A stretch of DNA of 64,000 bases from Phycisphaerae bacterium (GCA_022072505.1 JAJVHU010000022.1:87603-151602), one strand, 5' to 3'; shown: positions 1,852 through 37,308, counted from the first letter of the stretch. Numbers and translations: made by a program. The notes: a model not told the origin generated them from the letters alone.

Positions 1852-1870
1852 CGAGCGCCATGAGATTGCC

Positions 1871-6523: not shown

Positions 6524-6571
6524 CGGATCGGGCAGCATTCGATGCTGATCCCGCCGGCGCCGAGCAGGTCG
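6524..6571 (-). repeat. 48-bp internal fragment of the gcdH 3' region
   Basis: Matches about 8163-8210 with one silent change (GGC to GGG). Confidence 0.9.
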
Positions 6572-22051: not shown

Positions 22052-22056
22052 GGAGA

Positions 22057-22161
22057 GGCAACAGGGAATAGGCGACAGGGAATAGGCAATAGGCAATAGG
22101 CAATAGGCAACAGGCAACAGGCAACAGGCAACAGGCAACAGGCAACAGGCAACAGGGAACA
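22057..22161 (+). repeat. Heptamer tandem repeat GG(C/G)AA(C/T)A x15
   Basis: Counted 15 consecutive 7-nt units. Confidence 0.95.
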
Positions 22162-22261
22162 GGGAAAAAACCTTGGCAGAAGTCTGCGTGCTGTTTCTTG
22201 ACGGTGTGCATTGCAGGAGTCACGGGGCGAAAGCGAACTTCGGGCCGGTGGGAGGGTAGAC

Positions 22262-22777: not shown

Positions 22778-23023
22778 ATGCGGAGCTTAAGGAAGGAGAA
22801 AGTAGTCGCTACCAGAAAACGACGACGCGAGGTCGCGGAGGAGATGGAGGCTTTGCGATCGGCGCAACGCAACCAGCGCTTCGCGGCAGCGTGGCGCATG
22901 TCTGAGTTGACGCACTACATTCAAACCGGGCAGTGCGCAATGCCGCGCCTGGATCGGAGCGTCGCATCTTTGTGGAAACGTACGCCACGGGGGCGGCGGC
23001 TTATCCGGCGGATCTCCTTATGA
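22778..23023 (+). CDS. Small basic hypothetical protein
   Basis: Open frame; stop overlaps (ATGA) the ATG of the nuoD 5' copy. Confidence 0.45.
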   Translation: MRSLRKEKVVATRKRRREVAEEMEALRSAQRNQRFAAAWRMSELTHYIQTGQCAMPRLDRSVASLWKRTPRGRRLIRRISL

Positions 23024-23142
23024 CCACTGCCACCACCATCCCGCCCGAACCGTCTACATTCGCCCCGGAGGAACCCGGCGGCGATTTGTGGACGCCGCAC
23101 TTGGGCCCGTGGTGCCCGGCGACGCATACCGCCCCGCCCCGG
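23020..23142 (+). repeat. Abandoned copy of the first about 40 codons of nuoD
   Basis: MTTATTIPPEPSTFAPEEPGGDLWTPHLGP vs MTTATYNPPEPSTFAPEEPGGDLWTLNFGP at 23573. Confidence 0.95.
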
Positions 23143-23229
23143 GTGCATGGTCGCGGCGTGGAGAGTGTCATTCCGCGTCGCGGGAATAGCGTAACACAGT
23201 TGGTTCAGGCGTATCGGAGTTGAGTCGCG

Positions 23230-23572: not shown

Positions 23573-24832
23573 ATGACCACCGCAACCTACAATCCACCTG
23601 AACCGTCCACGTTCGCTCCGGAAGAACCCGGCGGCGATTTGTGGACGCTGAACTTCGGGCCGCAGCATCCGGCGACGCATACCACCCTGCGCCTCGTGCT
23701 GGAGCTTGACGGCGAACGCGTGCTGCGCGCCACGCCGCACATCGGGTATCTGCACAGCGGGTTCGAGAAGCTCGGGGAGCACCTGAACTACAATCAGTAT
23801 GTGGTCGTCACGGACCGCATGAACTACGTCTCGCCGATGGCCAACAATCTCGCGTGGCATCACGCGTGCGAAAGACTTTTCGACATCGAGATCACGCCGC
23901 GGTGCAAGGTGATCCGAACGATCTGCGCGGAGCTGGCGCGGATTCAGGACCATCTGCTCTGCGTCGGCGCTGCGGCGCTCGACCTCGGCGCGCTGACGGC
24001 GTTTCTGTACGGCTTCAACGAGCGCGAGATGATCTACGACCTGTTCGAGGAGATCTGCGGGGCGCGGTTCACGGTCAGCTACACGCGCGTCGGCGGGCTT
24101 ATGCAGGACATTCCGGCGGAGTGGCCCGCGCATGTGAAGGCGTTCTGCAAACATTTGCCGACAGCGATCGCCGATCTGGAATCGCTGCTGAACCGCAATC
24201 GCATTTTCATCGAGCGCACGAAGGGCGTGGGCGTGATCGGGCGCGAGGACGCGATCAACTGGGGTCTGACGGGTCCGCTCGCGCGTTCCGCCGGCGTGCG
24301 CCGCGACCTTCGCAAGGATGAGCCGTACCTGTGCTACGCGGCCGACTGGGACGGCAAGGGTTCGTCGGGCGTGGAGTTCAAGGTGCCGATCGCGACGGGC
24401 GGCGACGTGCTCGCGCGATACCTGGTGCGCCTGGAGGAGATCAAGCAGTCGCTGTCCATCCTTGCGCAACTGGTGGACAACATTCCGCCGGGTCCGATCA
24501 ATGTGCTGCCCGACGACAAGAAGGCGCTGCCGGACAAGCGCGAAGTGTACTTCAGCATCGAGGGCCTGATCCACCACTTCGAGACGATCATGACCAACCG
24601 GGGCTTCACGCCGCCTGTGGGCGAGGCATACGGTTGCCAGGAAACCGCCAACGGCGAACTGGGTTTCTACCTGGTCAGCGACGGCGGCAACTGCGCGTAT
24701 CGCGCGAGATGCCGCCCGCCGAGCTTCATCAATTACCAGTGCTTTCCGAAGCTCGTGGAAGGGCACCAGATCAGCGACGTGGTGGCGATCCTCGGGTCGC
24801 TGAATATCATCGCGGCGGAGTTGGACCGGTGA
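23573..24832 (+). CDS. nuoD: NADH-quinone oxidoreductase subunit D
   Basis: NFGPQHPATH, GYLHSGFEK, DRMNY, C-terminal ELDR. Confidence 0.97.
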   Translation: MTTATYNPPEPSTFAPEEPGGDLWTLNFGPQHPATHTTLRLVLELDGERVLRATPHIGYLHSGFEKLGEHLNYNQYVVVTDRMNYVSPMANNLAWHHACERLFDIEITPRCKVIRTICAELARIQDHLLCVGAAALDLGALTAFLYGFNEREMIYDLFEEICGARFTVSYTRVGGLMQDIPAEWPAHVKAFCKHLPTAIADLESLLNRNRIFIERTKGVGVIGREDAINWGLTGPLARSAGVRRDLRKDEPYLCYAADWDGKGSSGVEFKVPIATGGDVLARYLVRLEEIKQSLSILAQLVDNIPPGPINVLPDDKKALPDKREVYFSIEGLIHHFETIMTNRGFTPPVGEAYGCQETANGELGFYLVSDGGNCAYRARCRPPSFINYQCFPKLVEGHQISDVVAILGSLNIIAAELDR

Positions 24833-25501: not shown

Positions 25502-26050
25502 ATGGACGCCTTTGAGAATCTTGTGGCAACCTTGGTCCATGCCGACGGTTACTGGGTGAGGACCTCGTTCGCGGTTGAGCTTACAAAAGATGAGAAGCGT
25601 GCGGTCGACAACCCAACCATGCCCCGACCGGAGATCGACGTGCTTGCCTACAAGCCGGCGCTAAACGAGGTTCTCGTAATAGAGTGCAAATCGTACCTGG
25701 ATTCCACGGGCGTGACGCATCGGAACTTTACAGAGACGAGTAAACATCGTTACAAGTTGTTTCACAATCCGGTCCTTTGGCGCGTTGTCGGAAGGGCGAT
25801 CATCAGACAACTGGAAAAATCAGGCGCAATCCTAAGCGGCGCACGGGCGACGCTTTGTCTGGCGACGGGAAGAATACGAAATAATTCAGACCGCGAGTTG
25901 CTTCACGCCGTGTTCAGCAAGCGCGGTTGGAGGCTGTTTGACGACAGGTGGATATCCGAGCGGACGCAGGGCATGGCGAAGTCGGCGTATGTCAACGACG
26001 CGGCGATCATCGCCCTAAAGATGGCCGATCGCTTCCGCGGCGCCTCCTAG
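25502..26050 (+). CDS. PD-(D/E)XK nuclease-like protein
   Basis: EIDVLAY ... VIECKSY motif. Confidence 0.6.
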   Translation: MDAFENLVATLVHADGYWVRTSFAVELTKDEKRAVDNPTMPRPEIDVLAYKPALNEVLVIECKSYLDSTGVTHRNFTETSKHRYKLFHNPVLWRVVGRAIIRQLEKSGAILSGARATLCLATGRIRNNSDRELLHAVFSKRGWRLFDDRWISERTQGMAKSAYVNDAAIIALKMADRFRGAS

Positions 26051-26107
26051 AGAATGGCGCGCCGTGGCGGTGTGCGGCTCCTGAAAAGACTAAGTTGATG
26101 AGGACTT

Positions 26108-26770
26108 ATGGCCTGGATACCCCTCGATCGTAACAAACCCGCGTTCCCAAAGGACGCGCCGCCGATCCTCACCGAAGCAGTGCGCGAAAAGATACGCTTC
26201 TTCTTTTCGCGTTACGCGACGAGGCGCGCGGTGCTGCTGCCCGCGCTGCATGTCGTGCAAGACGCGCTGGGGCACGTCTCGATGCAGGCGATGACGGAAA
26301 TCGCCGAGCTGCTCGAGATTCACCCGTCGGAGGTGATGGACACGGTTTCGTTCTACACGCACTTCTGGACGCATCCGAAGGGTAAGAAAGTGATCGTCGC
26401 GTGCCGGAGCATTTCGTGCGAAGCGCTCGGCGGTCAGAAGGTGATCGACGCGGTCAAGCAGCACCTGCACGTTCGCGAGCACGGCACGACGGCGGACGGG
26501 ACGTACAGCTTCATGACCGAGGAGTGCCTGGCCGGATGCGACCACGCCCCGTGCCTGCTGATCGGCGAGCGGATGCACAAGCAGGTCAAGCCGGAGGACG
26601 TGCCGAAGCTGCTGGCGGACGCGGGGAACGACCGGATCGCGGCGCCGCGCAGCGACTTGTTCGACGCGCCGGCGGCGAAGGGCGGCGCGTCGAACGGACG
26701 TCCCGGAGGGGGTTCCAGCGCGGAGACGGTCGGCGCGACCAGCGACATCCGCGAAATGCGTGAGGCGTAG
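26108..26770 (+). CDS. nuoE: NADH-quinone oxidoreductase subunit E
   Basis: VSFYTHF, CRSISC, ECLAGCDHAP 2Fe-2S ligands. Confidence 0.95.
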   Translation: MAWIPLDRNKPAFPKDAPPILTEAVREKIRFFFSRYATRRAVLLPALHVVQDALGHVSMQAMTEIAELLEIHPSEVMDTVSFYTHFWTHPKGKKVIVACRSISCEALGGQKVIDAVKQHLHVREHGTTADGTYSFMTEECLAGCDHAPCLLIGERMHKQVKPEDVPKLLADAGNDRIAAPRSDLFDAPAAKGGASNGRPGGGSSAETVGATSDIREMREA

Positions 26771-26993
26771 GAATCGCACGACGCGATGGATCCGGCGGCA
26801 GGCGAGCACGAGTCTTTCAACGCGCCGGAGCCCGGCAAGCCGTCGCGCGGGGCAAAGGTCGCGCGGACGTCTGAAGCGCACGGTTCCGGCGGTGCGGCGC
26901 CGCAGGAGCAGGGGGCATCGGGTCCGCCGATCGCGGGCGCAGGCGGATCAATCTGGGCGTGCGATTACTCCCTGTCGGACGTGAAGACGTGGC

Positions 26994-28265
26994 TTGTGCG
27001 GCGGCCGAAAGCTGCTCGGGCTGGCTGCGGTTTACGTCGTTTATTTTTTTCTTCTGGACGCTCCGCTTTGGCGCGGGCCGGGTCCGTACAACGATCACAC
27101 GTCCCCGCGTTACGGGCAGACATGCCCGGCGACCTTTTTCGGCAACCGGGTCATCGTCTACGAAGACAATCTGAACATCGGTGAGGCCGTCGGGTGGTGG
27201 CGGGGGACGTTCGAGTTGCCGTTCCGGCGGTTGGACACGGCGCTGTTCGAGGGGCGGATTCTCAACGCTTATCCGCCGATGATGACGCTGATCGCGGCGG
27301 CGGTGATCCCTTTCTGCGCGGAGGGCGTGCCGCAGGTGCTGCTGGCGGCGCTGCTGGGTCTGCCGCTGCCGGGGCTGGCGTACTGGCTGATGCTGAAGCG
27401 GACGCGGCGGGTGTGGATGGCCGTTGTACTGGCGATTGCGCTGGTGTGTGGGACGTCGGTGTTTCCGGTTCTGCGTTGGGCGTTGCGGTCGTCGCAGGTG
27501 TATCACGTGAATCATGTGTTGGCGGTCGCGGGACAGCTCGTGATGCTGGCGGAGTTTTTCGGGCGACGACGGGTGGGCGTGATGGGGCTGGGGTTGATGC
27601 TGGCGGCGTGGTCGCGTCAGTTGACGGCGTTCTACGCGATCCCGCTGATCTGGGCGGCGTGGCGCGGAAGCGAGGATTCGGTCGGGACGATGGCGCGCGG
27701 GTCGTCGCGGGGCGCGCGGATGGCGCAGGCGGCGGCGGTGTGCGCGGTGGTGGCGGGCGTGCCGGCGGTGCTGAATACGTTGAAATTTCACCGGCCTTGG
27801 GACTTCGGATATCGGCACCTCTACGAGGGGATCGAGTCGGAGCAGGCCCGGTGCGCGAAGATCGGGATCTTCTCGCCCGCGTTCATCGCGCGGAACGCGT
27901 ATGTGCTGAACCTCGGGCTTCCGAAGCTGAAGCGCGAGTACTACGGTTGGAGGCTGGTGACGAACTTTCAGGGCACGGGCATCTGGTGGACATCTCCGTT
28001 GCTGCTGTATCTGCTGCCGGCGTTCCGAAAGATCGTGATGGACGCGGCGTCGCGCGTCTGGCTTGCGGCCGCCGCGCTGGTCGTGCTCGGCATCCTCATG
28101 TATCATACGACGGGGAAGTTTCATCAGGGGCATCACCGGTTTTCGACGGATTTCATCCCGGTGTTGTTCGCGTTGCTGGCGCCGCGATGGAATGCGGCGA
28201 GGCGTCCGTGGCTGGTGTGCGTGTTCGCGCTTTGCGGGATCGGCTGGTTCGTGAGTCTCCCGTAA
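26994..28265 (+). CDS. Polytopic membrane protein, GT-C glycosyltransferase-like; true start uncertain
   Basis: About ten hydrophobic segments; SRQL, HRFSTDF motifs. Confidence 0.5.
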   Translation: MCGGRKLLGLAAVYVVYFFLLDAPLWRGPGPYNDHTSPRYGQTCPATFFGNRVIVYEDNLNIGEAVGWWRGTFELPFRRLDTALFEGRILNAYPPMMTLIAAAVIPFCAEGVPQVLLAALLGLPLPGLAYWLMLKRTRRVWMAVVLAIALVCGTSVFPVLRWALRSSQVYHVNHVLAVAGQLVMLAEFFGRRRVGVMGLGLMLAAWSRQLTAFYAIPLIWAAWRGSEDSVGTMARGSSRGARMAQAAAVCAVVAGVPAVLNTLKFHRPWDFGYRHLYEGIESEQARCAKIGIFSPAFIARNAYVLNLGLPKLKREYYGWRLVTNFQGTGIWWTSPLLLYLLPAFRKIVMDAASRVWLAAAALVVLGILMYHTTGKFHQGHHRFSTDFIPVLFALLAPRWNAARRPWLVCVFALCGIGWFVSLP

Positions 28266-28299
28266 GCGAAAAGGAAAGACGAGGATCCGGGGAGTCGGC

Positions 28300-29607
28300 A
28301 TGGCGAATTACGAACCCATCCTGCTGCGCAATCGCGGCGTCGAGGGCTCGCGCACGCTCGGCGTGTACGAGTTGCGCGGCGGGTATCAGGCGGTGCGCAA
28401 GGCGCTGAAGATGACGCCGGAGGAGGTCGTCGAGGAGGTCAAGAAGGCGAACCTTCGCGGGCGCGGCGGGGCGGGGTTCCCCGCGGGGATGAAGTGGAGC
28501 TTTCTGCCCAAGGACCGCAAGACGACGTACCTGTGCGTGAACGGCGACGAGAGCGAACCGCCGACGTTTTCCAACCGCGTGCTGATGGAGCACGATCCGC
28601 ACCAACTCATCGAGGGCGTCATCATTGCCGCCTACGCCGTGCAGGCGCAGGTGGCGTACATCTACCTCCGCGTCGAGTTTCACGAGCCGTTTCACGTTCT
28701 CCAGCGCGCCGTGGATGAGGCGTATGCGAAAGGCTATCTCGGCAGGAAAGTTTTCGGCAGCGATTTCAACGTCGAGGTGTATCTGCACCGCGGGGCGGGC
28801 GCCTACGTGTGCGGCGAGGAGACCGGGCTGATCGAGTCGCTCGAGGGCAAGCGCGGCTGGCCTCGCATCAAGCCGCCGTTTCCCGCGATCGAGGGCCTGT
28901 TCCGCAAGCCGACCATCGTCAACAACGTCGAGACGCTGTGCAACGTTCCGCACATCATCGAGCGCGGGGCGGCGTGGTTCACGTCCGTCGGTCCGTCGCA
29001 CAGCACGGGTCCGAAGCTCTTCTGCATCAGCGGACCGGTGAACAAACCCGGCTGCTACGAGTGGTCGATGGACCTTTCGGTGCAGGAGTTGATCGAGGAT
29101 CCGCGCTTTGGCGGCGGGATGCGCGACGGAAAGAAGGTCAAGTGCGTGCTGCCCGGCGGGATCTCGATGGGGGCGCTCTGTGCGTCCGAACTGCACATGA
29201 AGATGGACTTCGAGGATCCGCGGAAGTTCGGGCTGCTCGGTCTGGGCACAGCCGCGGCGGTCGTGCTGGACGAGAGCATCGACATCCGCATCGTTCTGCG
29301 GAACCTCGCGCGGTTCTACGCGATGGAGTCGTGCGGGCAGTGTACGCAGTGCCGCGAGGGGACAAGCTGGATGCACAAGATCGCCGACCGCATCGCCCGT
29401 GGCGCGGGACGGTTGGAGGATCTGGATCTGATCCTTCAGACCGCGCGCAACATGGGCATGATGCCGGGGTTGTCGATCTGCGGATTGCCCGATGGGGCGA
29501 CGTATCCGATCGAGACGGTGGTGAAGAAGTTCAGGGGGGAGTTGGAGGAGCGGATCAGGGCGCAGCCCCGCGAGGAAGTCGGGCAGACGCTCGCGGTGGT
29601 GAACTGA
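28300..29607 (+). CDS. nuoF: NADH-quinone oxidoreductase subunit F
   Basis: LRGRGGAGFP, GDESEP, GAGAYVCGEET, ESCGQCTQCREG. Confidence 0.97.
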   Translation: MANYEPILLRNRGVEGSRTLGVYELRGGYQAVRKALKMTPEEVVEEVKKANLRGRGGAGFPAGMKWSFLPKDRKTTYLCVNGDESEPPTFSNRVLMEHDPHQLIEGVIIAAYAVQAQVAYIYLRVEFHEPFHVLQRAVDEAYAKGYLGRKVFGSDFNVEVYLHRGAGAYVCGEETGLIESLEGKRGWPRIKPPFPAIEGLFRKPTIVNNVETLCNVPHIIERGAAWFTSVGPSHSTGPKLFCISGPVNKPGCYEWSMDLSVQELIEDPRFGGGMRDGKKVKCVLPGGISMGALCASELHMKMDFEDPRKFGLLGLGTAAAVVLDESIDIRIVLRNLARFYAMESCGQCTQCREGTSWMHKIADRIARGAGRLEDLDLILQTARNMGMMPGLSICGLPDGATYPIETVVKKFRGELEERIRAQPREEVGQTLAVVN

Positions 29608-29618
29608 GGACAAACTCG

Positions 29619-29843
29619 ATGACGGTGATCAACGGACATTTTGACGGAAGGAATGTCGTTTTGGATGAACCCGTGCCGCCCGGGATTCCGCCGCTGACGC
29701 CTGTAAAGGTCATGTTCGAGCCGGTTGGCGGCGCGCAGAACATCGTTGCGGAACTTGCGGAACTGGCTGTTTCCACTGATGAACTGCCCGAGGACTACTC
29801 CGAGCAACATGAACATTATGTGAAAGGGACTCCCCGTCGATGA
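29619..29843 (+). CDS. Antitoxin (paralogue of 31339)
   Basis: INGHFDG..VVLDEP ... LPEDYSEQHEHY; ATGA overlap with VapC. Confidence 0.75.
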   Translation: MTVINGHFDGRNVVLDEPVPPGIPPLTPVKVMFEPVGGAQNIVAELAELAVSTDELPEDYSEQHEHYVKGTPRR

Positions 29844-30256
29844 GGACGGCTTTTGTCGACACCTCGTTTCTTATTGCCTGTGTGCTGGTGAAGGATGTCT
29901 GGCACGCCCGCGCCATCGCCTGGCAACGGCGGACGGTGGGGCGGCTGGTGACGACAGAGTACGTATTGATGGAATTTGTGGACGCGCTATCGCAGCCGCC
30001 TGTTCGTCGCTCCGCTCTCGCTGCCGTCGGGCTTCTTCGACGCCAGCCGGCTGTGGGGGTTCTTACGGCCTCGACCGCGCTGATGGACGAAGGACTTGCT
30101 CTCTATGCGCAATCCGCGGACAAGGCGTGGAGTCTGACGGATTGCATTTCGTTTTCCGTGATGCGTCGAGAGGGTCTAAGCGACGCGCTGACGAGCGACC
30201 GGCATTTTGAGCAAGCCGGGTTTCGAGCCTTGCTGCGTATTGACGCGCCGGCATGA
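29840..30256 (+). CDS. vapC: VapC/PIN toxin
   Basis: FVDTS, E, SLTDCISF, ALTSDRHFEQAGF. Confidence 0.9.
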   Translation: MRTAFVDTSFLIACVLVKDVWHARAIAWQRRTVGRLVTTEYVLMEFVDALSQPPVRRSALAAVGLLRRQPAVGVLTASTALMDEGLALYAQSADKAWSLTDCISFSVMRREGLSDALTSDRHFEQAGFRALLRIDAPA

Positions 30257-30440
30257 TCCGGCGATTCGCACGCGCGGCAGAGGCTGGCTGGAGGATCTGG
30301 CGCTGAATCTTCAGACCGCGCGCAACATGGGCATGATGCCGGGGTTGTCGATCTGCGGGCTGCCCGATGGAGCGACGTATCCGATCGAGACGGTGGTGAA
30401 GAAGTTCAGGGGGGAGTTGGAGGAGCGGATTCGGGCGCAG
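30257..30440 (+). repeat. nuoF 3'-end copy A
   Basis: 30309-30440 aligns gap-free to 29434-29565 (44 codons). Confidence 0.97.
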
Positions 30441-30486
30441 GCGCCGGAGGGGGCAGGGATGGCGCTGGCGGGGGGGGGCTTAATGC

Positions 30487-30945
30487 ATGCACTGCTTTGA
30501 GCATTCAGGCGAGTCCGCGATCGGTGTATGCATGGTGTGCGGTCGCGGATTATGTCGGAAGTGCGCGGTTGAGACGGGCAGTCTGTTGGCGTGTCGGCAA
30601 AAATGCGAGATCATCGCCACGAGAATCAGCGACCTGCGGGAGTTCCAGAGCAACCAGCCGCTGCTCCAGGAGCGCTTGATCTCGCATGCGCGCAGGACGC
30701 GGATGGCGTCCGGCGTGTTCATGACGGCCGTCGGCGTCCTGCTCGTGATTCTGGGATTGAAGTTCGGGCAATGGGCCTTTGCGGGTCCGGGGGCCGGAAT
30801 CATGCTGGTCTACGGTGCTGTGACGTTGATCATGGAGTATCGAAGAAACAGCAAGACCTCCAACTTCCGCCTGTGCCGGCGCTGCGGTTACAACCTCACG
30901 GGGACTTCGAGCGATCGGTGTCCAGAGTGCGGAGCGAAGACGTAG
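30487..30945 (+). CDS. Two-TM membrane protein with N-terminal B-box-like and C-terminal zinc-ribbon motifs
   Basis: CFEH...CMVCGRGLCRKC; CRRCGYNL...CPECG. Confidence 0.65.
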   Translation: MHCFEHSGESAIGVCMVCGRGLCRKCAVETGSLLACRQKCEIIATRISDLREFQSNQPLLQERLISHARRTRMASGVFMTAVGVLLVILGLKFGQWAFAGPGAGIMLVYGAVTLIMEYRRNSKTSNFRLCRRCGYNLTGTSSDRCPECGAKT

Positions 30946-30980
30946 CATGATGGGGGCCATCGAGGTGTCCGTGAATGGAT

Positions 30981-31052
30981 GCGCCGACCGCGGATCGCCG
31001 TTTCGAGCAGGCATGCTTGCGAGCCTTGCTGCGTATTGACGTGCCGGCATGA
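30981..31052 (+). pseudogene. 3' remnant of a third VapC
   Basis: APTADRRFEQACLRALLRIDVPA*; last part near-identical to 30224-30256. Confidence 0.75.
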
Positions 31053-31278
31053 TCCGGCGATTCGCACGCGCGGCAGAGGCTGGCTGGAGGATCTGGCGCT
31101 GAATCTTCAGACCGCGCGGAACATGGGCATGATGCCGAGGTTGTCGATCTGCGGACTGCCCGATGGGGCGACGTATCCGATCGAGACGGTGGTGAAGAAG
31201 TTTCGCGGCGAGTTGGAGGAGCGGATCAGGGCGCAGCCCCGCGAGGAAGTCGGGCAGACGCTCGCGGTGGTGAACTGA
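31053..31278 (+). repeat. nuoF 3'-end copy B including stop codon
   Basis: 31105-31278 aligns gap-free to 29434-29607 (58 codons). Confidence 0.97.
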
Positions 31279-31338
31279 GCAGGAAATGCGGGAGAGCGGA
31301 TGGCGAAGGTCGTGTCTGAGGTCAGCCAGGAGGGCAAA

Positions 31339-31560
31339 ATGGAAGTCTTGAACGGTCATTATGACGGCAAACAAGTAGTGATTGATGAGCCGGTTCCGGG
31401 GGATATCCTGCCGGACACACCTGTCAAAATCGTTTTCGAACGTCGTACGAACGAGACCGCATTGGACCGGCTCGCACGCCTTGCAGGACCAGGCCACGGA
31501 TTGCCTCGCGACTACGCCGAGCAACATGAGCATTACATCAAAGGAACGCCGCGAAAGTGA
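31339..31560 (+). CDS. Antitoxin (paralogue of 29619)
   Basis: LNGHYDG..VVIDEP ... LPRDYAEQHEHY. Confidence 0.75.
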   Translation: MEVLNGHYDGKQVVIDEPVPGDILPDTPVKIVFERRTNETALDRLARLAGPGHGLPRDYAEQHEHYIKGTPRK

Positions 31561-31979
31561 ACGCGACCTTCCTCGACACCTCTTACCTGCTCGCGATCGT
31601 CAACCAGGAGGATGAGTTGCATGCGCGCGCGCTTGCCTGGAAGAACCGCATTCGGGGCCGATTGTTGACGACGGACTTCGTTCTCCTGGAGTTCGTGGAC
31701 GCGCTCTGTAGACCGGCGCTTCGTCATCGCGCGATGGATGTGGTCGTGGTGCTGAGGGCGGACGCTGACATCACGATTCTCCCCTTGTCGACGACTTTGA
31801 TGGACGAAGGCCTGTCCCTCTTTGGCGCCCATCACGACAAGCATTGGAGCTTAACGGATTGCATTTCATTCCACGTGATGAAGCGCGAGCAGATCACGGA
31901 GGCGCTGACCGCGGATCGTCATTTCGAGCAGGCCGGCTTTCGGGCCCTGCTCCGCAGCGATCCGCCGTCCGGTTCTTAG
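31557..31979 (+). CDS. vapC: VapC/PIN toxin
   Basis: FLDTS, SLTDCISF, ALTADRHFEQAGF. Confidence 0.9.
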   Translation: MNATFLDTSYLLAIVNQEDELHARALAWKNRIRGRLLTTDFVLLEFVDALCRPALRHRAMDVVVVLRADADITILPLSTTLMDEGLSLFGAHHDKHWSLTDCISFHVMKREQITEALTADRHFEQAGFRALLRSDPPSGS

Positions 31980-31989
31980 TTCTATTCAA

Positions 31990-32967
31990 ATGGAACAACG
32001 CCATGTCGCCGCTACCGCCGCGCTGTACACGCAACTGCCCTATCCCGGCGACGGGGTGGTGCGGACGACGTCGGCGCGGATTCTGCTGAAGGGGTTGCGT
32101 CAACATGCGCCCGCGCTCTTGGAGCGGCGACCTTTGTGGATCGCGGATGTCGGGTGCGGGACGGGCGAAGCCACCGCGGGCATTGCAAAGATGCTGCCGG
32201 GCGCGCGGGTCGTGGGCATCGACGTGAACCGCGCGAGTCTGGATCTGGCGCGGGCGCTCGCCGCTCGATCGAGGCTCAACCTCACTTATGTCGAGGCCAA
32301 CGCGGCGTCGCCGTTGCGCGAGGCGCTCCAACGATCCGGAGCTTGGCCGCCGGAGGGAAAGTTTGACCTCGTGACGTCGATGGGCGTTCTGCATCACCTG
32401 AGCGACCCCGCGACAGGGTTCGCCCATGTGCGGGATATCCTCCGCGAGGACGGCCTGTTTCAGGTCTACGTGTACTCGAAGCTCGGGCGACGCGAGGTGC
32501 TCGCGGTGCGGGATCTGCTGGATCATGCCGATCCCGGGGCGACGTTTGCGGAACGCGCGCGGATGGTCAGCGCGCTGCGCCTCTCGTCGAAGCACACGCT
32601 GCTCGATGGGCTGCGGACGTTGCGGAAGCGGCTTCGGTTCGGTCCGCCGCTGCGGATCGGGGAGATCGTGAAGGTCGCGCTGCGGCGCAACCGGGTGACC
32701 CACGCTTCGGACACGTTCTCCAACCCGTGTGAACATTCCTTCCTGTTCGAGGAATTGTTCACGATTTTCGCGCGGACCGGTTGGGCGTTCGCGGGTCTGG
32801 CGAAGAGGGGCGGGCTGCCCACCTCACCGGAGGAGCACACGCGCGATCCGCGGGCGCTGGAGATGCTGAAGGCCATGCCGCAAGCCGCGCTCTTCGATCT
32901 ACTCGCCTTCGCGCATCGCGTCGCCGGGTGGACGTTTTTCCTTCGCCCGACAAAGATCGTCGCGTAA
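31990..32967 (+). CDS. Class I SAM-dependent methyltransferase
   Basis: IADVGCGTGE, FDLVTSMGVLHH. Confidence 0.8.
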   Translation: MEQRHVAATAALYTQLPYPGDGVVRTTSARILLKGLRQHAPALLERRPLWIADVGCGTGEATAGIAKMLPGARVVGIDVNRASLDLARALAARSRLNLTYVEANAASPLREALQRSGAWPPEGKFDLVTSMGVLHHLSDPATGFAHVRDILREDGLFQVYVYSKLGRREVLAVRDLLDHADPGATFAERARMVSALRLSSKHTLLDGLRTLRKRLRFGPPLRIGEIVKVALRRNRVTHASDTFSNPCEHSFLFEELFTIFARTGWAFAGLAKRGGLPTSPEEHTRDPRALEMLKAMPQAALFDLLAFAHRVAGWTFFLRPTKIVA

Positions 32968-32971
32968 CGCC

Positions 32972-34714
32972 ATGAACGACGGAAAGGTCATCCTGGGCAT
33001 TCACGACGGGCACAACGCCTCCGTCTGCGTGCTTGTCGGCGGGAAGGTCGCGTACCTCGTGCAGGAGGAGCGCGTCCGCTACGAGAAGAATTACTGGGGA
33101 TTCCCCACCGAGGCCGTCAAACACGCGCTGGCGACGGTCGGGCTTTCCGCGAAGGACATCGACCGCGTCGCGTTCTCGACGATCTCCGGCGTCCCGCGTC
33201 GGCGCGACCTCAAGGCGACGCTGTACGCCTTCGAGCGACTGCTGAAGCCTTCCGGGTTGGCGCGGATGGCGCTGATCCGCCTCATCGGCAAGCTGCCCTA
33301 TGCGCGGCTGAAGAACAACATGCGGATGCGTCGCGCGCTGCTCGCGGAGTGCGGAATCTCCGGCGGCGACGTGAAAGCCTACGGGCACCACGCCTGCCAC
33401 GCCGCCGCGGCGTATTATGCGATGCGCACGGATGCGGAGAGCGATCACCTCGTGCTGACGCTCGACGGCGCGGGGGAGCGTCATTGTGCGACGGTCAGCG
33501 TGGCGTCGAAGGGTTCGCTCAATCGCATCGCGGCGACGACGATCCCGCACAGCCTCGGTACGATCTACGCGTTCGTCACCTTCCTGATGGGCTTCATCCC
33601 TTACGACCACGAATACAAGCTGATGGGGATGGCGCCGTATTACGACGCCCGTCGCGCGGAGGAAGCCGCCCGGATTTTCCATCGCTACGTGGGCTTGCGC
33701 CCCGACGGGCTGGGGTTCGCGAAAAAGACTTTGCTTCCGATGCACATGCAGGGGCCGAGCCTGATGCGGGCGATGCGGCTTGAGCGGTTCGACGCGATCT
33801 GCGCCGGGCTTCAGAAGTTCACCGAAGACCTGATGGCGCAGTGGACGCAGAACTGCGCCCGGCACGCGCGGCTGGGGAAGGTCGTCTGCGGCGGCGGCGT
33901 GTTCATGAACGTGAAGGCCAACAAGCGGCTGATGGAGCTGCCGGAAGTTTCGCATCTCGGGGTGCTTCCTTCGTGCGGGGATGAATCGCTCTCCTACGGC
34001 GCAGCCGCCCTGGCGCACGCGGAAATGGCGGACGCGGATGAGATCGAACCGTGGGGAGCGATCTATTTCGGGCCGGAGGTCGATGACGCCGCGGCGCGGA
34101 AATTGCTGGAGGAGAAGGGTTGCGCGTTCAGCCGTCCCGAGGACATCGAGTTGGAGATCGCCCGGCTGGTTCATGCGGGTCATCCCGTGGCGAGGTGCCG
34201 GGGGCGGATGGAGTTCGGGGCGCGGGCGCTGGGGAACCGGTCGATCCTGGCCGACCCGAGCAAGCTGGACAGCGTTCGCGTCATCAACCAGATGGTGAAG
34301 AAGCGCGACTTCTGGATGCCGTTTGCGCCGATCATGCTGCGTGAGCGGTCGGAGGAGTACATCCGGAATCCGAAGGCGCTGCCCAGCCCGCACATGATGC
34401 TGACGTTCGACAGCCGGGAGACGTTCCCGGAGTTCCTGGCGGCGGTGCATAACGCGGACCTGACGGCGCGGGCCCAGCTTCTGGAGGAACGACACAACCC
34501 GGACCTGCACCGCTGTCTGAAGCACTTCGAGCGGCTCAGCGGGCGGGGGGTGATGCTGAACACGTCGTTCAACCTGCACGGATATCCGATTTGCCTGGGT
34601 CCGAACGAGGCGCTGCACGTTTTCGAGAACTCGGGGCTGGAGCATCTGGCGCTGGGGCCGTTCATGGTGAGGAAGGTGAGCTCGAATGCGCACGAACGAC
34701 GGCTTGGCCTGTGA
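32972..34714 (+). CDS. Carbamoyltransferase, NodU/CmcH family
   Basis: ILGIHDGHNAS, HHACHA, MEFGARALGNRSIL, LNTSFNLHG.PI. Confidence 0.9.
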   Translation: MNDGKVILGIHDGHNASVCVLVGGKVAYLVQEERVRYEKNYWGFPTEAVKHALATVGLSAKDIDRVAFSTISGVPRRRDLKATLYAFERLLKPSGLARMALIRLIGKLPYARLKNNMRMRRALLAECGISGGDVKAYGHHACHAAAAYYAMRTDAESDHLVLTLDGAGERHCATVSVASKGSLNRIAATTIPHSLGTIYAFVTFLMGFIPYDHEYKLMGMAPYYDARRAEEAARIFHRYVGLRPDGLGFAKKTLLPMHMQGPSLMRAMRLERFDAICAGLQKFTEDLMAQWTQNCARHARLGKVVCGGGVFMNVKANKRLMELPEVSHLGVLPSCGDESLSYGAAALAHAEMADADEIEPWGAIYFGPEVDDAAARKLLEEKGCAFSRPEDIELEIARLVHAGHPVARCRGRMEFGARALGNRSILADPSKLDSVRVINQMVKKRDFWMPFAPIMLRERSEEYIRNPKALPSPHMMLTFDSRETFPEFLAAVHNADLTARAQLLEERHNPDLHRCLKHFERLSGRGVMLNTSFNLHGYPICLGPNEALHVFENSGLEHLALGPFMVRKVSSNAHERRLGL

Positions 34715-34959
34715 ATCAGAGCGATCCCCATCGGGGTCCATGGCCCGCCCTGAACCTGGCCAAGACAGGGGCGCAGGGGCACGCGCTCGAGACGAGGGGG
34801 GTTCCCGGACCCCGCTTTATCGACTAGGATGCAGGGCGAGTAAGGAGGTTGCGTGGGGCCCGAGGTGGCGTGCGATTGGAGGCTGCGATGAGGTAGGTTC
34901 TGAGTCGAGGAACGAGCACACGACCAGGGAATCGACATGTTCTACGCAGGAATCTTGTT

Positions 34960-35379
34960 ATGGGGCTTACTCGACTCAAACTGAAGATCAAGAAGGACGC
35001 GCAAGCGCGGGCAGAGAGGGAATTGCAGTTCCTGATTGACTCCGGCGCGATCCACACCGTTGTTCCTCGTGATGTTCTTCGTTCTCTCGGGATCAAGCCC
35101 TTTAAGAAAGCGTCCTTCACGCTGGCGAACGGCGGTGAAATCGAGCGCGAGATAGGGACGGCGCATTTCATCTACCAGGATCATGAAGGCGGCGCACCTG
35201 TGGTTTTTGGTGAGAAATCGGATACAGCGTTGTTAGGAGCGACGACCCTCGAAGCGATGGGCTTAGCCCTTAATCCCTTGAAGCGAGAGTTGTACCCGCT
35301 TCAGATGACTTTGATGGCTGACGCGTCGCTGTGGCTTCCCGGTCCGGCGGGGTCGCCGACGATCCGTCGGCGGCATTGA
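34960..35379 (+). CDS. Clan AA (retropepsin-like) aspartyl protease
   Basis: FLIDSGA and LLGATTLE motifs. Confidence 0.8.
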   Translation: MGLTRLKLKIKKDAQARAERELQFLIDSGAIHTVVPRDVLRSLGIKPFKKASFTLANGGEIEREIGTAHFIYQDHEGGAPVVFGEKSDTALLGATTLEAMGLALNPLKRELYPLQMTLMADASLWLPGPAGSPTIRRRH

Positions 35380-35431
35380 TCGCTGAGATTCGGCGGGTCC
35401 AGCACGGTCGGGGAGCTTGGGAGTGCGGCTC

Positions 35432-35668
35432 ATGCAGGCGATTCTGTCTGTTTCGGAATCGGATGTCATTGTGTATTGCCGGGGGTGTGGCGCGCTTGCC
35501 GGGAAACCCAGCCAGTGCCCCGTGTACAGCAGATACGAGTATTCATTTGTCGGATCGAGGGTGCCGGTGGTGTGCAGGGGCTGCGGCGCCGTGCCGGGCG
35601 TTCCCAGCCAATGTCCGGTCTACAGCAAATACCAACATTCGTTTTCTCCAGTTCCCGTAACAGATTGA
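35432..35668 (+). CDS. Small Cys-rich protein with an internal tandem duplication
   Basis: Two copies of CRGCGA..G.PSQCPVYS.Y..SF; start uncertain (35417 or 35432). Confidence 0.5.
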   Translation: MQAILSVSESDVIVYCRGCGALAGKPSQCPVYSRYEYSFVGSRVPVVCRGCGAVPGVPSQCPVYSKYQHSFSPVPVTD

Positions 35669-35673
35669 TCGAC

Positions 35674-37308
35674 ATGCCGAAAATCATCATCGACACTAAG
35701 GAAATCCAGTCCCGCGACGGCATCCCCGTGCTTCAGGCGGCGCTCGAAGCCGGGTGGGATGTGCCGCACTATTGTTATCATCCGGGCCTTTCCATCGTGG
35801 CGTCGTGTCGTCTGTGCCTGATGGAGATGAAGATGCCCAACCCCAAGACCGGCGAGCTTTCCTGGGCGCCGAAGCTGGTGCCGAGTTGTCAGACGCCGGT
35901 GAAGGAGGGGATGGAGGTTCGCTTCGACTCGCCGGCGGTGAAGGACAACCAGAAGGACTGCATGGAGTATTTCCTGCTGAATCACCCGCTGGACTGTCCC
36001 GTCTGCGACCAGGCCGGCGAGTGTTATTTGCAGGATTACTCGTACAAGTTCGGGCACGCCGAGTCGCGGATGATCGATCCGAAGCTGAAAAACCCGAAGA
36101 AGGACATCGGCCCGAAGACGCTGCTTTACCAGGACCGTTGCGTCATGTGTACGCGCTGCGTGCGCTTCACGCACGAGGTGTCCGGGACGCACGAGCTTTG
36201 CGTCATCAATCGCGGGTCGCGCGCGGAGATCGACGTCTTCCCCGGTTTTCCGCTGGACAATCCGCTGCAGGGCAACGTCGTCGATGTCTGCCCCGTCGGA
36301 TCGCTGCTCGACAAGGATTTCCTCTTCAAGCGCCGCGTCTGGGAGCTGAGAAGCGCGGACTCGATCTGTCCGGGATGCGCGGCGGGGTGCGCGATCCGCA
36401 TCGACCACGCGGACGAGACGGTGTACCGCCTCAAGCCGCGCTTCAACCCGGAGGTCAACGACTGGTGGATGTGCGACGAGGGGCGGTTCGGGTGGAAGTA
36501 CGTCCACGATCCGAAGCGGATCACGTCGCCGATCGTGCGCCGCGGGATGGACACCCTGACGCCGGAGTGGAGCGAACTTCCGCGGATGGTGCGTTTCCGC
36601 TTCGAGGAGCACATGCAGGAGGAGGGCGGCAGGGGTCGGCGCATCGGGGCGGTGCTGTCGCCGTTCATGTCCTGCGAGGAGGCGTGGCTGCTGGCGAAGT
36701 TCATCCGCGAGGCGGACCCGCAGGCGGTGCTGGCGGTGGGGCCGACGCCTTATGAGGGGGAGGATCAGAAGTTCCCGGCGGGCGTGAACGGCGATGCGTC
36801 GAAGGTGAAGTTCACGATTCTGAAGGAGAAGGCGCCGAACCGGCGGGGCGTGGAGATGGTTCTGGCTGCGTCGGGAGGCGAGGCGGTCGATTTCGCGGCG
36901 TTTACGGCACGGGCCTTGAAGGGAGAGTTCAGCGCGGCGTGGATCGTGGGGGGCTATCCGAAGCCCTGGATCGAGGGCGACGCGGCGAAACTGGCGGCGC
37001 ATTTCCGGCTGCTCGTGGTCGCGGATATATTCCCGAATCCGCTGATGGACGGCGCGGCGATCGTGCTGCCCGCGTGTAGCTGGACGGAGCGGGAAGGGTC
37101 GTTCGTGAACGCGGACGGTCTGGTGCAGCCGTTTTCGCGGGCGATCCAGCCGCCGGAAGGCGCGCGGCGGGACGAACAGTTCTTGTTCGAGCTTGCGGGG
37201 TACGTGGGGCTGGCGAGCGGCGAGCGGATTCGGGAGTTGATGGCGGAGAAGATTCCGGCATTTGCGAGCGTGTACGTGCCGCCGGCGGTTCCGGAGCATG
37301 CGCATTAG
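35674..37308 (+). CDS. nuoG: NADH-quinone oxidoreductase subunit G (compact)
   Basis: CYHPGL...CRLC, HPLDCPVCDQAGEC, RCVMCTRCVRF, CPGCAAGC...C. Confidence 0.95.
   Translation: MPKIIIDTKEIQSRDGIPVLQAALEAGWDVPHYCYHPGLSIVASCRLCLMEMKMPNPKTGELSWAPKLVPSCQTPVKEGMEVRFDSPAVKDNQKDCMEYFLLNHPLDCPVCDQAGECYLQDYSYKFGHAESRMIDPKLKNPKKDIGPKTLLYQDRCVMCTRCVRFTHEVSGTHELCVINRGSRAEIDVFPGFPLDNPLQGNVVDVCPVGSLLDKDFLFKRRVWELRSADSICPGCAAGCAIRIDHADETVYRLKPRFNPEVNDWWMCDEGRFGWKYVHDPKRITSPIVRRGMDTLTPEWSELPRMVRFRFEEHMQEEGGRGRRIGAVLSPFMSCEEAWLLAKFIREADPQAVLAVGPTPYEGEDQKFPAGVNGDASKVKFTILKEKAPNRRGVEMVLAASGGEAVDFAAFTARALKGEFSAAWIVGGYPKPWIEGDAAKLAAHFRLLVVADIFPNPLMDGAAIVLPACSWTEREGSFVNADGLVQPFSRAIQPPEGARRDEQFLFELAGYVGLASGERIRELMAEKIPAFASVYVPPAVPEHAH

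What the first reader, a model, noticed from the sequence alone, without database searches (positions are those of the whole stretch)
29434..31979. nuoF 3' end present three times, heading paralogous antitoxin-VapC cassettes, with a recombinant junction
Copy A (44 codons) has 5 substitutions, all silent, then a different tail; copy B (58 codons) has 5 silent codon changes, 1 missense and the identical native tail and stop. The about 95-nt VapC-end/nuoF-fragment junction (from 30224 and 31020) is shared almost exactly by A and B, while the VapC remnant before B is a mosaic of the two intact toxins, evidence of repeated integration and recombination among cassettes.
Basis: partly seen in the sequence, partly recalled or inferred. 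Interest (0 to 1): 0.82.

Follow-up and report, generated by a model that had tools for sequence, protein, structure and literature searches.

The report
Toxin-antitoxin cassettes displacing the nuoF end
Two small toxin-antitoxin gene pairs sit behind the respiratory gene nuoF of an uncultured planctomycete, each next to a leftover copy of the gene's last ~60 codons. The pattern shows that these cassettes spread between related genomes by ordinary recombination, with no mobility enzyme of their own.

Summary
The nuoF 3' end occurs three times and nowhere else in the genome: the live end (N), copy A and copy B. N-A differ by 5 codons, all silent. N-B differ by 5 silent codons and 1 missense codon, and share an identical tail. 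A 99-nt VapC-end/junction block is shared by A and B with one mismatch, and the VapC remnant before B is a VapC2-like/VapC1-like mosaic.

Two sister species have nuoF directly followed by the zinc-ribbon gene. So AT1-VapC1 is an 875-bp insertion, and copy A is the displaced ancestral end. Two other species of the genus carry different toxin-antitoxin (TA) pairs at the same spot, again followed by a nuoF-tail remnant.

The pattern is general:
- At least 15 other gene ends in this genome are duplicated; across those pairs, 132 codon differences are silent and 58 are not.
- 14 of 70 homologous VapBC loci from other phyla have such flanking repeats, against 5 of 362 shifted control windows.

Best reading: the cassettes enter by host homologous recombination, with the gene-end copy acting as a portable homology arm, and toxin addiction keeps them in place. 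The closest published kind is "insertion with long target duplication" of restriction-modification units.

The parts
28300..29607 (+). nuoF (NADH dehydrogenase subunit F, 435 aa). Its last 228 nt (29380-29607) are the live copy N of the repeated end: core 29434-29565, tail 29566-29607 (AQPREEVGQTLAVVN*).
   Evidence: Pfam Complex1_51K and NADH_4Fe-4S. It is 94% identical in protein to G002/G004. Alignment.
29619..29843 (+). AT1, a 74-aa putative antitoxin. It starts 11 nt after the nuoF stop, and its stop overlaps the VapC1 ATG (ATGA).
   Evidence: ORF and overlap read from the sequence. It is 55% identical to AT2 and to a third copy on C12. No Pfam or NCBIfam match. GC3 is 0.59 against 0.88 for nuoF.
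29840..30256 (+). VapC1, a 138-aa PIN-domain toxin, apparently intact (D7, E45, D101, D120).
   Evidence: Pfam PIN, 38.5 bits against a cut-off of 23.6. It is 58% identical to VapC2. The acidic residues were read from the translation.
30257..30308 (+). J(A): a decayed nuoF-like stretch directly after the VapC1 stop. It is the cassette-borne upstream part of the displaced end.
   Evidence: Identical to J(B). About 53% identical to the matching nuoF segment; that figure is my own count by eye on the alignment. Sister-species nuoF aligns from 30266.
30309..30500 (+). Copy A: the displaced ancestral nuoF end. The core (30309-30440) has 5 silent differences from N. The tail is decayed (AQAPEGAGMALAGGG..., stop lost) and runs into the ZnR start codon.
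   Evidence: 30266-30956 is colinear with nuoF end + ZnR of G002/G004 at 86-88% nt. Codon counts. Tails compared.
30487..30945 (+). ZnR: a 152-aa zinc-ribbon membrane protein, the ancestral downstream neighbour of nuoF.
   Evidence: 86-91% identical protein lies directly after nuoF in G002/G004. Only weak zinc-ribbon/rubredoxin-like Pfam hits.
30985..31052 (+). VapC remnant (last ~22 codons). It is a mosaic: VapC2-like in its 5' half and VapC1-like in its 3' half, and it ends with the VapC1-type stop.
   Evidence: 29/34 vs 21/34, then 20/34 vs 32/34.
31053..31104 (+). J(B): the second copy of the junction stretch.
   Evidence: One mismatch in 99 nt over 31020-31118 against 30224-30322.
31105..31278 (+). 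Copy B: a displaced nuoF end with 5 silent codon changes and 1 missense change. Its tail and stop are identical to N.
   Evidence: 70-nt run identical to N.
31300..31560 (+). AT2, a putative antitoxin (86 aa from 31300; the Met at 31336 aligns with the AT1 start). Its stop overlaps the VapC2 GTG.
   Evidence: An 81% identical homologue lies next to nuoF in another genus.
31557..31979 (+). VapC2, a 140-aa PIN-domain toxin and an old resident of the nuoF-nuoG gap.
   Evidence: Pfam PIN, 51.9 bits. Its C-terminal remnant is kept before the methyltransferase gene in G002/G004. L041 has a homologue.
31990..32967 (+). SAM-dependent methyltransferase gene: the conserved right flank of the variable slot.
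   Evidence: Pfam Methyltransf_12/25/11. Present after the slot in G001-G004.

Best explanation
The region is a small array of self-stabilising toxin-antitoxin (VapBC-type) cassettes stacked at the 3' end of nuoF. No mobility gene is involved.

Proposed mechanism. DNA comes in from a closely related strain that already carries nuoF - cassette - displaced nuoF end (T-X-T'). It recombines by the host's homologous recombination. The left crossover lies in the nuoF body. The right crossover lies between the donor's displaced end T' and the recipient's own live nuoF end. This has three results:
- The donor's nuoF end becomes the working end.
- The cassette is inserted.
- The recipient's old end is pushed downstream as a hybrid: donor junction J, then the recipient's core and tail.
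Everything downstream is kept.

What happened here:
- AT1-VapC1 (an 875-bp unit) entered in this way in front of the ancestral nuoF-ZnR junction. That produced copy A, with the crossover directly after J.
- An earlier exchange with the same type of donor had its left crossover inside VapC. It placed VapC1-type end - J - copy B in front of the old resident AT2-VapC2 and left the mosaic VapC remnant.

Why the structure persists. Loss of the cassette by recombination between the repeats would free the stable toxin. Cells that pop it out are therefore removed, and the duplication persists.

Shown:
- the anatomy;
- the empty site in sister species;
- copy A as the ancestral end;
- two different tail alleles in one genome;
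- the excess of silent differences;
- recurrence at nuoF within the genus, at other genes in this genome, and in other phyla.

Inferred: the double-crossover route, the order of events, and stabilisation by addiction.
For: 1. Empty site. G002 and G004 have nuoF followed 8-10 nt later by the ZnR gene. Window 30266-30956 (copy A + ZnR) is colinear with that at 86-88% nt.

2. Two tail alleles. The A tail (AQAPE...) resembles the tails of the genus. The N/B tail (AQPREEVGQTLAVVN) differs from it over its whole length. An in-place duplication cannot give two tails, so at least one end was imported.

3. Silent differences. For nuoF there are 10 silent and 1 missense codon differences. Across 15 live/displaced pairs in this genome the count is 132 silent to 58 non-silent (69%). 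I expect about 26% for random change and 41-55% for in-place duplication followed by decay (and my calculation). The copies therefore diverged while both were working genes.

4. Sharp boundary. J is decayed (about 53% identical to nuoF) and identical in A and B. The core right after it is 94-96% identical to N. This is what a right crossover just downstream of J would leave.

5. Mosaic VapC remnant, which shows recombination inside the paralogous toxin genes.

6. Recurrence with different cargo. G001 has a DUF3368/PIN-like pair followed by a nuoF-tail remnant. G003 has a ParE-family pair followed by a 78-nt copy at 94%. Sixteen genomes outside the genus have no copy within 1.5 kb.

7. No recombinase. 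The 875-bp insert holds only AT1 and VapC1, and no recombinase family was hit among the ORFs scanned between 25.5 and 36 kb. There are no plasmid or phage matches.

8. Variable geometry. Duplication length (28-228 nt) and the linker after the toxin stop (0-350 nt) vary. This argues against a fixed att site or transposon ends.

9. Generality. At least 15 other gene ends in this genome are affected, including argC, sucC, aldH, mdh, gcdH and glyS. Their cargo is PIN, HicA, ParE, DUF4258 and MqsA-like. Fourteen of 70 homologous VapBC loci from other phyla have close flanking direct repeats, against 5 of 362 shifted control windows.

10. Foreign composition. The GC3 of the cassettes is 0.59-0.78, against 0.84-0.88 for the neighbouring nuoE, nuoF and membrane-protein genes.
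Against: - No donor genome with nuoF(N)-AT1-VapC1-J was found. The J pattern is absent from the genome and metagenome collections.
- N, A and B are all closer to each other than to sister species. Gene conversion among the copies could therefore have shaped part of the pattern, and it makes the order of events uncertain.
- No recombination breakpoint is visible along nuoF.
- The model explains how a T-X-T' unit spreads. It does not explain how the first one arises.
- Natural transformation, or any other DNA uptake route, is unknown for this organism.
- AT-biased mutation at GC-rich third codon positions could inflate the share of silent differences.
Confidence: 0.55

Rival explanations
1. This is the first reader's idea of a circular intermediate with Campbell-type integration. 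The unit [nuoF end + antitoxin + vapC + J] excises as an 875-bp circle by recombination between flanking copies. It then re-enters a nuoF end, in the same or another cell, by a single homologous crossover. This also duplicates the gene end.
For: The final structure would be the same as in the best explanation. Two Logan assemblies from different runs give 905-nt contigs whose first and last 30 nt are identical, which makes them closed 875-nt cycles at k=31. One carries an N-type end and one a B-type end joined to AT1. The predicted circle-borne end (J + core + N-type tail) looks exactly like copy B.
Against: The cycles exist in the de Bruijn graph of the linear sequence as well. Shared runs of 59-76 nt exceed k, and bubble popping and tip clipping at low coverage can close them. 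No depth data could be obtained. A circle that pops out removes the antitoxin gene and should kill the cell. An 875-bp circle has no known means of transfer.
Confidence: 0.2
2. This would be a non-homologous 'insertion with long target duplication' made in place, for example by widely staggered breaks or replication template switching. Both nuoF ends would start identical. Today's differences would come from later divergence and gene conversion among the copies.
For: This is the published description for restriction-modification units, with repeats of 46-420 bp, variable length and no mobility genes (PMC2853133). Some such event is needed to create the first T-X-T' unit at any gene. The variable geometry fits. 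N, A and B share derived bases compared with sister species.
Against: The N and A tails are different alleles although the cores are 96% identical. Differences are 69% silent genome-wide and 10 of 11 at nuoF. J is strongly decayed while the adjoining core is not, which uniform neutral decay of a dead copy cannot give.
Confidence: 0.12
3. This would be site-specific recombination by an integrase acting in trans. The nuoF-end copies would be att sites, and the cassettes would be integrase-less remnants stacked by accretion, like CIME elements at the fda end or the e14/phage 21 surrogate icd end.
For: A surrogate gene end with silent differences and tandem stacking at one gene end are classic for such elements; this is established knowledge, not tested here. 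The boundary between J and the core is at the same position in A and B.
Against: There is no integrase in the insert or among the ORFs scanned between 25.5 and 36 kb. At least 15 unrelated target genes in one genome would each need their own specificity. The duplicated length differs between G000 (228 nt), G003 (78 nt) and G001 (about 77 nt, degraded) at the same gene. A and B share their boundary simply because they share one J by descent.
Confidence: 0.05
4. This would be an assembly artefact. Three strains, each with a different gene behind nuoF, would have been chained into one contig through the shared nuoF end.
For: The genome is a metagenome bin of 70 contigs. A 98.9% strain variant exists in the same data (L122). 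Short-k assemblies break at, or cycle through, the repeats.
Against: J and the VapC remnant are novel junction sequences that mis-joining within identical repeats cannot create. L124 spans VapC1 end, J, A, ZnR, remnant, J and B in one contig from another assembly at 100% identity. L126 and L120 join the N-type core to AT1. The same architecture is contiguous at argC in another assembly (L125) and occurs in G001 and G003.
Confidence: 0.03

Closest known systems
Insertion with long target duplication of restriction-modification gene units (Nobusato et al. 2000, Gene 259:99; Furuta, Abe & Kobayashi 2010, PMC2853133)
   Same: A small addiction-type gene unit without mobility genes is flanked by a long direct duplication of the target, tens to hundreds of bp and variable in length. 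An empty site with one copy exists in a related genome. Some repeats overlap gene 3' ends. The cargo kills cells that lose it.
   Different: The cargo here is type II toxin-antitoxin pairs, not restriction-modification units. The duplications always include the end of a conserved gene. They are stacked in arrays. They carry allelic, mostly silent, differences that point to homologous exchange between genomes. The published cases had near-identical repeats, and their mechanism was left open.
C-terminal displacement ('orphan') arrays of rhs, cdiA and mafB toxin genes
   Same: A new 3' end plus a small partner gene arrives by recombination in the conserved upstream part of the gene. The previous 3' end and its partner are pushed downstream, so arrays of displaced ends build up. 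This is from my own knowledge. The only related paper I saw was a title in a search hit list (PMC3848433), and I did not read it.
   Different: In those arrays the displaced end is itself the variable toxin domain, and the partner is its immunity gene. Here the displaced end is an invariant housekeeping sequence that serves only as homology, and the cargo is an independent TA operon.
Surrogate gene ends of integrase-borne elements (e14 and phage 21 in icd; ICE/CIME accretion at the fda 3' end)
   Same: The element brings a replacement 3' end that differs mainly at silent sites. The old end remains as a pseudo-fragment on the far side. Tandem accretion occurs.
   Different: Those elements use a tyrosine integrase and a fixed core site. 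Here no integrase is present, and the duplication length varies at the same gene.
TA islets spread by recombination at flanking core genes (PMC13617665, Mol Biol Evol 2026); Neisseria minimal mobile elements
   Same: Compact TA loci without mobile-element genes are proposed to move by homologous recombination in conserved neighbouring genes.
   Different: That model uses two different flanking core genes as arms and leaves no scar. Here both arms come from the same gene end, so the cassette can enter in front of any downstream content, and it leaves a displaced copy.
TA cassettes of chromosomal integrons and pdif modules of Acinetobacter plasmids
   Same: Arrays of small modules, many of them TA pairs, are separated by repeated sites. 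The TA pairs stabilise the array.
   Different: Those repeats are dedicated recombination sites (attC, pdif) used by IntI or XerCD. Here the repeats are pieces of whichever host gene was targeted.

Membership tests
Type II VapBC toxin-antitoxin system | PIN-domain toxin with the four conserved acidic residues | tested here: met
   Pfam PIN scores 38.5 and 51.9 bits against a cut-off of 23.6. D7, E45, D101 and D120 were read from the VapC1 translation. NCBIfam VapC scores below its cut-off.
Type II VapBC toxin-antitoxin system | Small antitoxin gene directly upstream, translationally coupled to the toxin gene | tested here: met
   The AT1 stop overlaps the VapC1 ATG (ATGA at 29840-29843). The AT2 stop overlaps the VapC2 GTG.
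Type II VapBC toxin-antitoxin system | Antitoxin with a recognised DNA-binding or antitoxin domain | tested here: inconclusive
   There is no Pfam or NCBIfam hit for AT1 or AT2. The C-terminal motif (L/D)P.DY.EQHEHY.KGTP(R/K) is conserved in the partner proteins of many homologous VapC loci.
Type II VapBC toxin-antitoxin system | Toxin arrests growth and the antitoxin neutralises it | not testable with these tools
   This needs expression tests in a laboratory strain.
Insertion with long target duplication (Nobusato/Furuta/Kobayashi) | Insert flanked by a direct duplication of the target sequence longer than 30 bp | tested here: met
   T is about 228 nt and the spacing is 875 nt.
Insertion with long target duplication (Nobusato/Furuta/Kobayashi) | A related genome shows the empty site with one copy of the target | tested here: met
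   G002 and G004 have nuoF directly followed by the ZnR gene.
Insertion with long target duplication (Nobusato/Furuta/Kobayashi) | No transposase, integrase or other mobility gene in the insert | tested here: met
   The insert holds only AT1 and VapC1.
Insertion with long target duplication (Nobusato/Furuta/Kobayashi) | Cargo is a restriction-modification unit | tested here: not met
   The cargo is a PIN-type TA pair. I therefore file this as a variant of the kind, not as a member.
Integrase-mediated element with a surrogate gene end (e14/phage 21 type, ICE/CIME accretion) | Tyrosine or serine recombinase encoded in the element or next to it | tested here: not met
   There is none in the insert. 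No recombinase family was hit among the ORFs scanned between 25.5 and 36 kb.
Integrase-mediated element with a surrogate gene end (e14/phage 21 type, ICE/CIME accretion) | Fixed core site shared by all junctions at a given target gene | tested here: not met
   The duplicated length at nuoF differs between species: 228 nt in G000, 78 nt in G003 and about 77 nt (degraded) in G001.
Integron gene cassette | attC site at the cassette end and an intI/attI platform | not tested
   No attC model was run. The repeats between cassettes are nuoF coding sequence, not imperfect palindromes.
Rhs/CDI-type C-terminal displacement array | The displaced 3' ends encode variable toxin domains followed by cognate immunity genes | tested here: not met
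   The displaced ends encode the conserved NuoF C-terminus. Only the array logic is shared.

The most novel reading that the evidence does not exclude
Toxin-antitoxin pairs that carry a copy of a conserved gene's end may form a widespread class of mobile cassette without a recombinase. The borrowed gene end would be a portable homology arm that lets the unit home into the same gene of any related genome. The units could leave as small circles or be taken up as linear DNA. Toxin addiction would prevent their loss. Arrays of displaced ends would record the history of invasions. This genome would be an unusually active example, with at least 15 target genes and about 30 cassettes.
Probability: 0.3. 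Interest if true: 0.85.

Novelty: new variant of a known kind. Interest (0 to 1): 0.6.

Why it matters
How chromosomal toxin-antitoxin genes move without any mobile-element machinery is an old open question. Here the scars are legible:
- an empty site in sister species;
- a displaced ancestral gene end;
- a foreign allele of the same end;
- a decayed junction that marks the crossover;
- a mosaic toxin remnant.

Together they suggest that host recombination plus a borrowed piece of a conserved gene is enough for a cassette to home into a gene end. They also explain why addictive cargo is what persists between such repeats.

The pattern extends the 'long target duplication' seen for restriction-modification units to TA systems. 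It gives that pattern a testable mechanism. It also gives annotators a reason not to discard short gene-end pseudo-fragments, because they date and order the insertions.

Tried and rejected
- Donor search. The exact J pattern was not found in genome contigs or metagenome contigs. The T+cassette+J stretch has no DNA match in plasmids or phages.
- Exact-protein look-ups of nuoF and of the copy-B ORF found nothing.
- A sliding identity plot of nuoF against four congeners showed no recombination breakpoint.
- The promoter/terminator scan gave no more than chance.
- Literature searches for TA combined with HFIR, Campbell or insertion-duplication, flanking direct repeats, or partial duplication found no description of this pattern for TA systems. 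Two attempts to open Pandey & Gerdes 2005 failed because it is not held.
- A conserved cassette end was considered and rejected, because the linkers after the toxin stop range from 0 to 350 nt and are unrelated.
- Simple tandem duplication of one cassette was considered and rejected, because AT1/VapC1 and AT2/VapC2 are only 55-58% identical in protein while the nuoF ends are about 95% identical in DNA.
No read-level test of linkage, copy number or circular forms was therefore possible, and no genome-wide search for PIN or recombinase families.

Full report
**Anatomy**

The window is part of contig C7 of a 4.67-Mb, 70-contig metagenome bin. The nearest VapC homologues come from Phycisphaerae-type planctomycete MAGs. 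On the + strand the order is as follows:
- nuoE, 26108-26770
- a membrane protein gene, 26994-28265
- nuoF, 28300-29607
- a 74-aa ORF (AT1), 29619-29843
- a PIN-domain gene (VapC1), 29840-30256
- a nuoF-end fragment (copy A), up to 30500
- a zinc-ribbon membrane gene (ZnR), 30487-30945
- a 68-nt VapC remnant, 30985-31052
- a second nuoF-end fragment (copy B), up to 31278
- AT2, 31300-31560
- VapC2, 31557-31979
- a methyltransferase gene, 31990-32967, and a carbamoyltransferase gene

Both PIN proteins pass Pfam's threshold. In each pair the antitoxin stop overlaps the toxin start. The antitoxins match no curated family.

**Check of the observation**

- The nuoF end occurs three times, and only here in the genome.
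- N vs A: 44 codons, 5 silent changes and no missense change, then a different tail.
- N vs B: 57 codons, 5 silent changes and 1 missense change, with an identical tail and stop. The identical run is 70 nt.
- The VapC-end/junction block 30224-30322 differs from 31020-31118 at one base.
- The remnant before B matches VapC2 at 29/34 and then VapC1 at 32/34.

One correction: copy A heads ZnR, not an antitoxin-VapC pair.

**What the relatives show**

Four other species of the genus were compared.

G002 and G004 have nuoF followed 8-10 nt later by ZnR. After that comes about 250 nt of repeat-rich spacer that ends in a VapC2-like C-terminal remnant (RFFEKAGYRKVLFGDPISGSGA*), then the methyltransferase gene. 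Window 30266-30956 (copy A + ZnR) is colinear with their nuoF end + ZnR at 86-88% identity. Three conclusions follow:
- Copy A is the original nuoF end, still attached to its original neighbour.
- AT1-VapC1 is an 875-bp insertion.
- A VapC2-type gene stood before the methyltransferase gene in the common ancestor.

A different genus has nuoF, a retropepsin-like gene, an AT2-like gene (81%), a VapC2-like gene (66%) and nuoG, with no nuoF-end copy. VapBC2 is therefore an old resident of this gap.

G001 carries a different pair (a DUF3368/PIN-like toxin) behind nuoF, followed by a degraded nuoF-tail remnant. G003 carries a ParE-family pair followed by a 78-nt copy of its own nuoF end at 94%. Sixteen genomes outside the genus have no copy within 1.5 kb. 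So three of five species have been hit independently at the same gene end by three TA families.

**Two alleles of the nuoF tail in one genome**

The A tail (AQAPEGAGMALAGGG..., stop lost) resembles the tails of the genus (AQAPEAVKRALAVVG in G001). The N and B tails (AQPREEVGQTLAVVN*) are a different allele. The cores next to them are 94-96% identical. An in-place duplication cannot give two tails, so at least one nuoF end arrived from another genome together with a cassette.

The three cores share derived bases compared with G002/G004. The donors were therefore close relatives, or the copies have partly converted one another.

**Silent differences**

At nuoF, 10 of 11 differing codons are silent. 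I repeated the count on 15 live/displaced pairs found by a self-comparison of the whole genome: argC, sucC, mdh, aldH, gcdH, glyS, nrnA-like and others. The result is 132 silent to 58 non-silent (69%). For comparison:
- Random single-base change in this coding sequence gives about 26% silent.
- An in-place duplication, in which only the live copy is under selection, would give about 41%.
- With strong GC-to-AT bias at third codon positions, that figure could rise to at most about 55%.
The last two figures are my own calculation. The displaced ends therefore diverged from the live ends mostly while both were working genes, that is, in different genomes.

**The junction J**

Directly after the VapC1 stop come 52 nt that are only about 53% identical to the corresponding part of nuoF. 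They are identical in A and B. Then, at CTTCAG (29434/30309/31105), identity to nuoF jumps to about 95%.

A dead copy that decays uniformly cannot show such a step. The step is expected if J belongs to the cassette (the upstream part of the donor's displaced end) and is never renewed. Everything downstream of the right-hand crossover, in contrast, is the recipient's own, recently functional, gene end.

**Proposed history (inferred)**

A donor of the type nuoF(N)-AT1-VapC1-J-B(N-type tail)-AT2-VapC2 exchanged DNA twice with a recipient of the G002/G004 type, nuoF(A)-ZnR-[AT-VapC2]-methyltransferase.
- In one exchange the left crossover was inside VapC. This gave the mosaic toxin, later truncated to the remnant, followed by J-B-AT2-VapC2.
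- In the other exchange the left crossover was in nuoF and the right crossover was between the donor's J-B and the recipient's live end. This gave N-AT1-VapC1-J-A-ZnR.
One J in the donor explains why A and B share it. Other orders of events are possible.

**Generality**

The same layout (gene end - small cargo - displaced gene end) occurs at 15 or more genes of this genome. It affects both 3' and 5' ends and often forms arrays. The aldH end occurs about five times, and the gcdH end four times within this same window. The cargo is mostly TA genes: PIN, HicA, ParE, DUF4258 and MqsA-like.

Among 80 loci from other phyla that encode homologues of VapC1, 14 of 70 testable ones have direct repeats of 28-202 nt closely flanking the cassette. 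Only 5 of 362 shifted control windows do. Examples:
- the 3' end of a response-regulator gene (L085)
- the 3' end of a sugar-kinase-type gene (L094)
- the 5' end of an ABC-F gene (L086, L098)

Repeat length and the spacer after the toxin stop vary freely, so there are no fixed element ends.

Gene ends are what one expects to survive. A duplication inside a gene destroys it, whereas one that includes the end leaves an intact copy.

**Comparison with what is known**

The closest published kind is 'insertion with long target duplication' of restriction-modification units (Nobusato et al. 2000; Furuta et al. 2010, PMC2853133). Those are also addiction units without mobility genes, flanked by duplications of 46-420 bp, mostly in transformable species, and their mechanism was left open. 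Reviews of TA systems cite that work only as an analogy.

A 2026 study proposes that TA islets spread by recombination at flanking core genes, but it mentions no flanking duplication.

Orphan arrays of rhs/cdiA/mafB genes and the surrogate icd end of e14/phage 21 share the displacement logic. They differ in cargo or in needing an integrase.

I therefore rate this as a new variant of a known kind. Notes from this scan report the same pattern in many other genomes. They agree with this reading but are not independent evidence.

**Assembly and what could not be done**

Pieces from other assemblies support every junction except the link from the B core to AT2.

Two Logan contigs are closed 875-nt cycles, with the first 30 nt equal to the last 30 nt. 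One has an N-type end and one a B-type end joined to AT1. This could reflect circles or tandem copies. However, the cycle also exists in the k=31 graph of the linear sequence, so it proves nothing.

Depth, linkage and population variation therefore remain untested.

**Verdict**

Noticed in passing
window 1868-1999 / 2612-2754 / 6524-6571 / 8063-8210: The 3' end of gcdH (minus strand) is repeated at least four times, and small cassettes lie between the copies. It is the same architecture as at nuoF. The repeats were confirmed by the genome self-comparison, but the cargo was not examined here.
   Followed up: partly
window 23020-23146 / 23573-23699: There is a 127-nt direct repeat (80% identical, spacing 553 nt) at the start of nuoD. 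It appears to be a 5'-end version of the same displacement.
   Followed up: partly
G000 C5:536-4518; C11:2280-5096 and 63635-65605; C13:97244-99708; C44:17295-22093; C30:17544-24397; C48:23386-26624; C51:8117-10747; C60:8027-10957; C25:435-3492; C4:105191-107230: At least 15 housekeeping gene ends are duplicated around small cargo: aldH (about 5 copies), argC, sucC, mdh, a glycyl-tRNA synthetase 5' end, the carB 5' end and others. Cargo includes PIN, HicA/HicB, ParE, DUF4258/MqsA-like, an NYN-like gene and a 279-aa gene of unknown function.
   Followed up: partly
L119 and L120 (Logan contigs of SRR10609166 and SRR10609164): Both contigs are 905 nt with identical first and last 30 nt, so they are closed 875-nt cycles of [nuoF end-AT1-VapC1-J]. 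L119 joins a B-type end (100% identical to 31043-31279) to AT1, a junction not present in the window.
   Followed up: partly
L032 (G003), about 280-590 nt downstream of nuoF: The ParE-family toxin behind nuoF in G003 seems to carry a 1-nt frameshift near its 3' end. The usual C-terminus (...GVGHRRDVYR*) is in the +1 frame. I read this from the DNA.
   Followed up: no
L029:3340-3400 and L030 (G002, G004), between ZnR and the methyltransferase gene: Most of the ancestral AT-VapC2 has been replaced by hairpin-like sequence and a tandem repeat, (GGGGGAAGGTGCGAA) x4. Only the last ~22 codons of VapC remain.
   Followed up: no
window 22042-22187: There is a tandem array of 7-nt units (AGGCAAC/AGGCAAT/AGGGAAT, about 20 units) upstream of the nuoD region.
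   Followed up: no
window 25502-37308: The nuo operon is repeatedly interrupted by unrelated genes: a NERD/Mrr-like nuclease gene before nuoE, a membrane protein gene between nuoE and nuoF, and a methyltransferase, a carbamoyltransferase and a retropepsin-like gene between nuoF and nuoG.
   Followed up: no
G000, many contigs (for example C2:240875-240934, C1:210177-210242): The C-terminal zinc-ribbon motif of ZnR (CRRCGYNLTG...CPECG) recurs in about 20 other ORFs of the genome.
   Followed up: no
G000 C9:2823-3563 and C40:3275-5145: The 3' end of a large gene (...ERRIDELVFQLYGVDGLPGG*) is duplicated around an IS200/RAYT-like Y1 transposase gene (MPGTYTQILLH...). This may be a different, transposase-linked route to a similar scar.
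   Followed up: no
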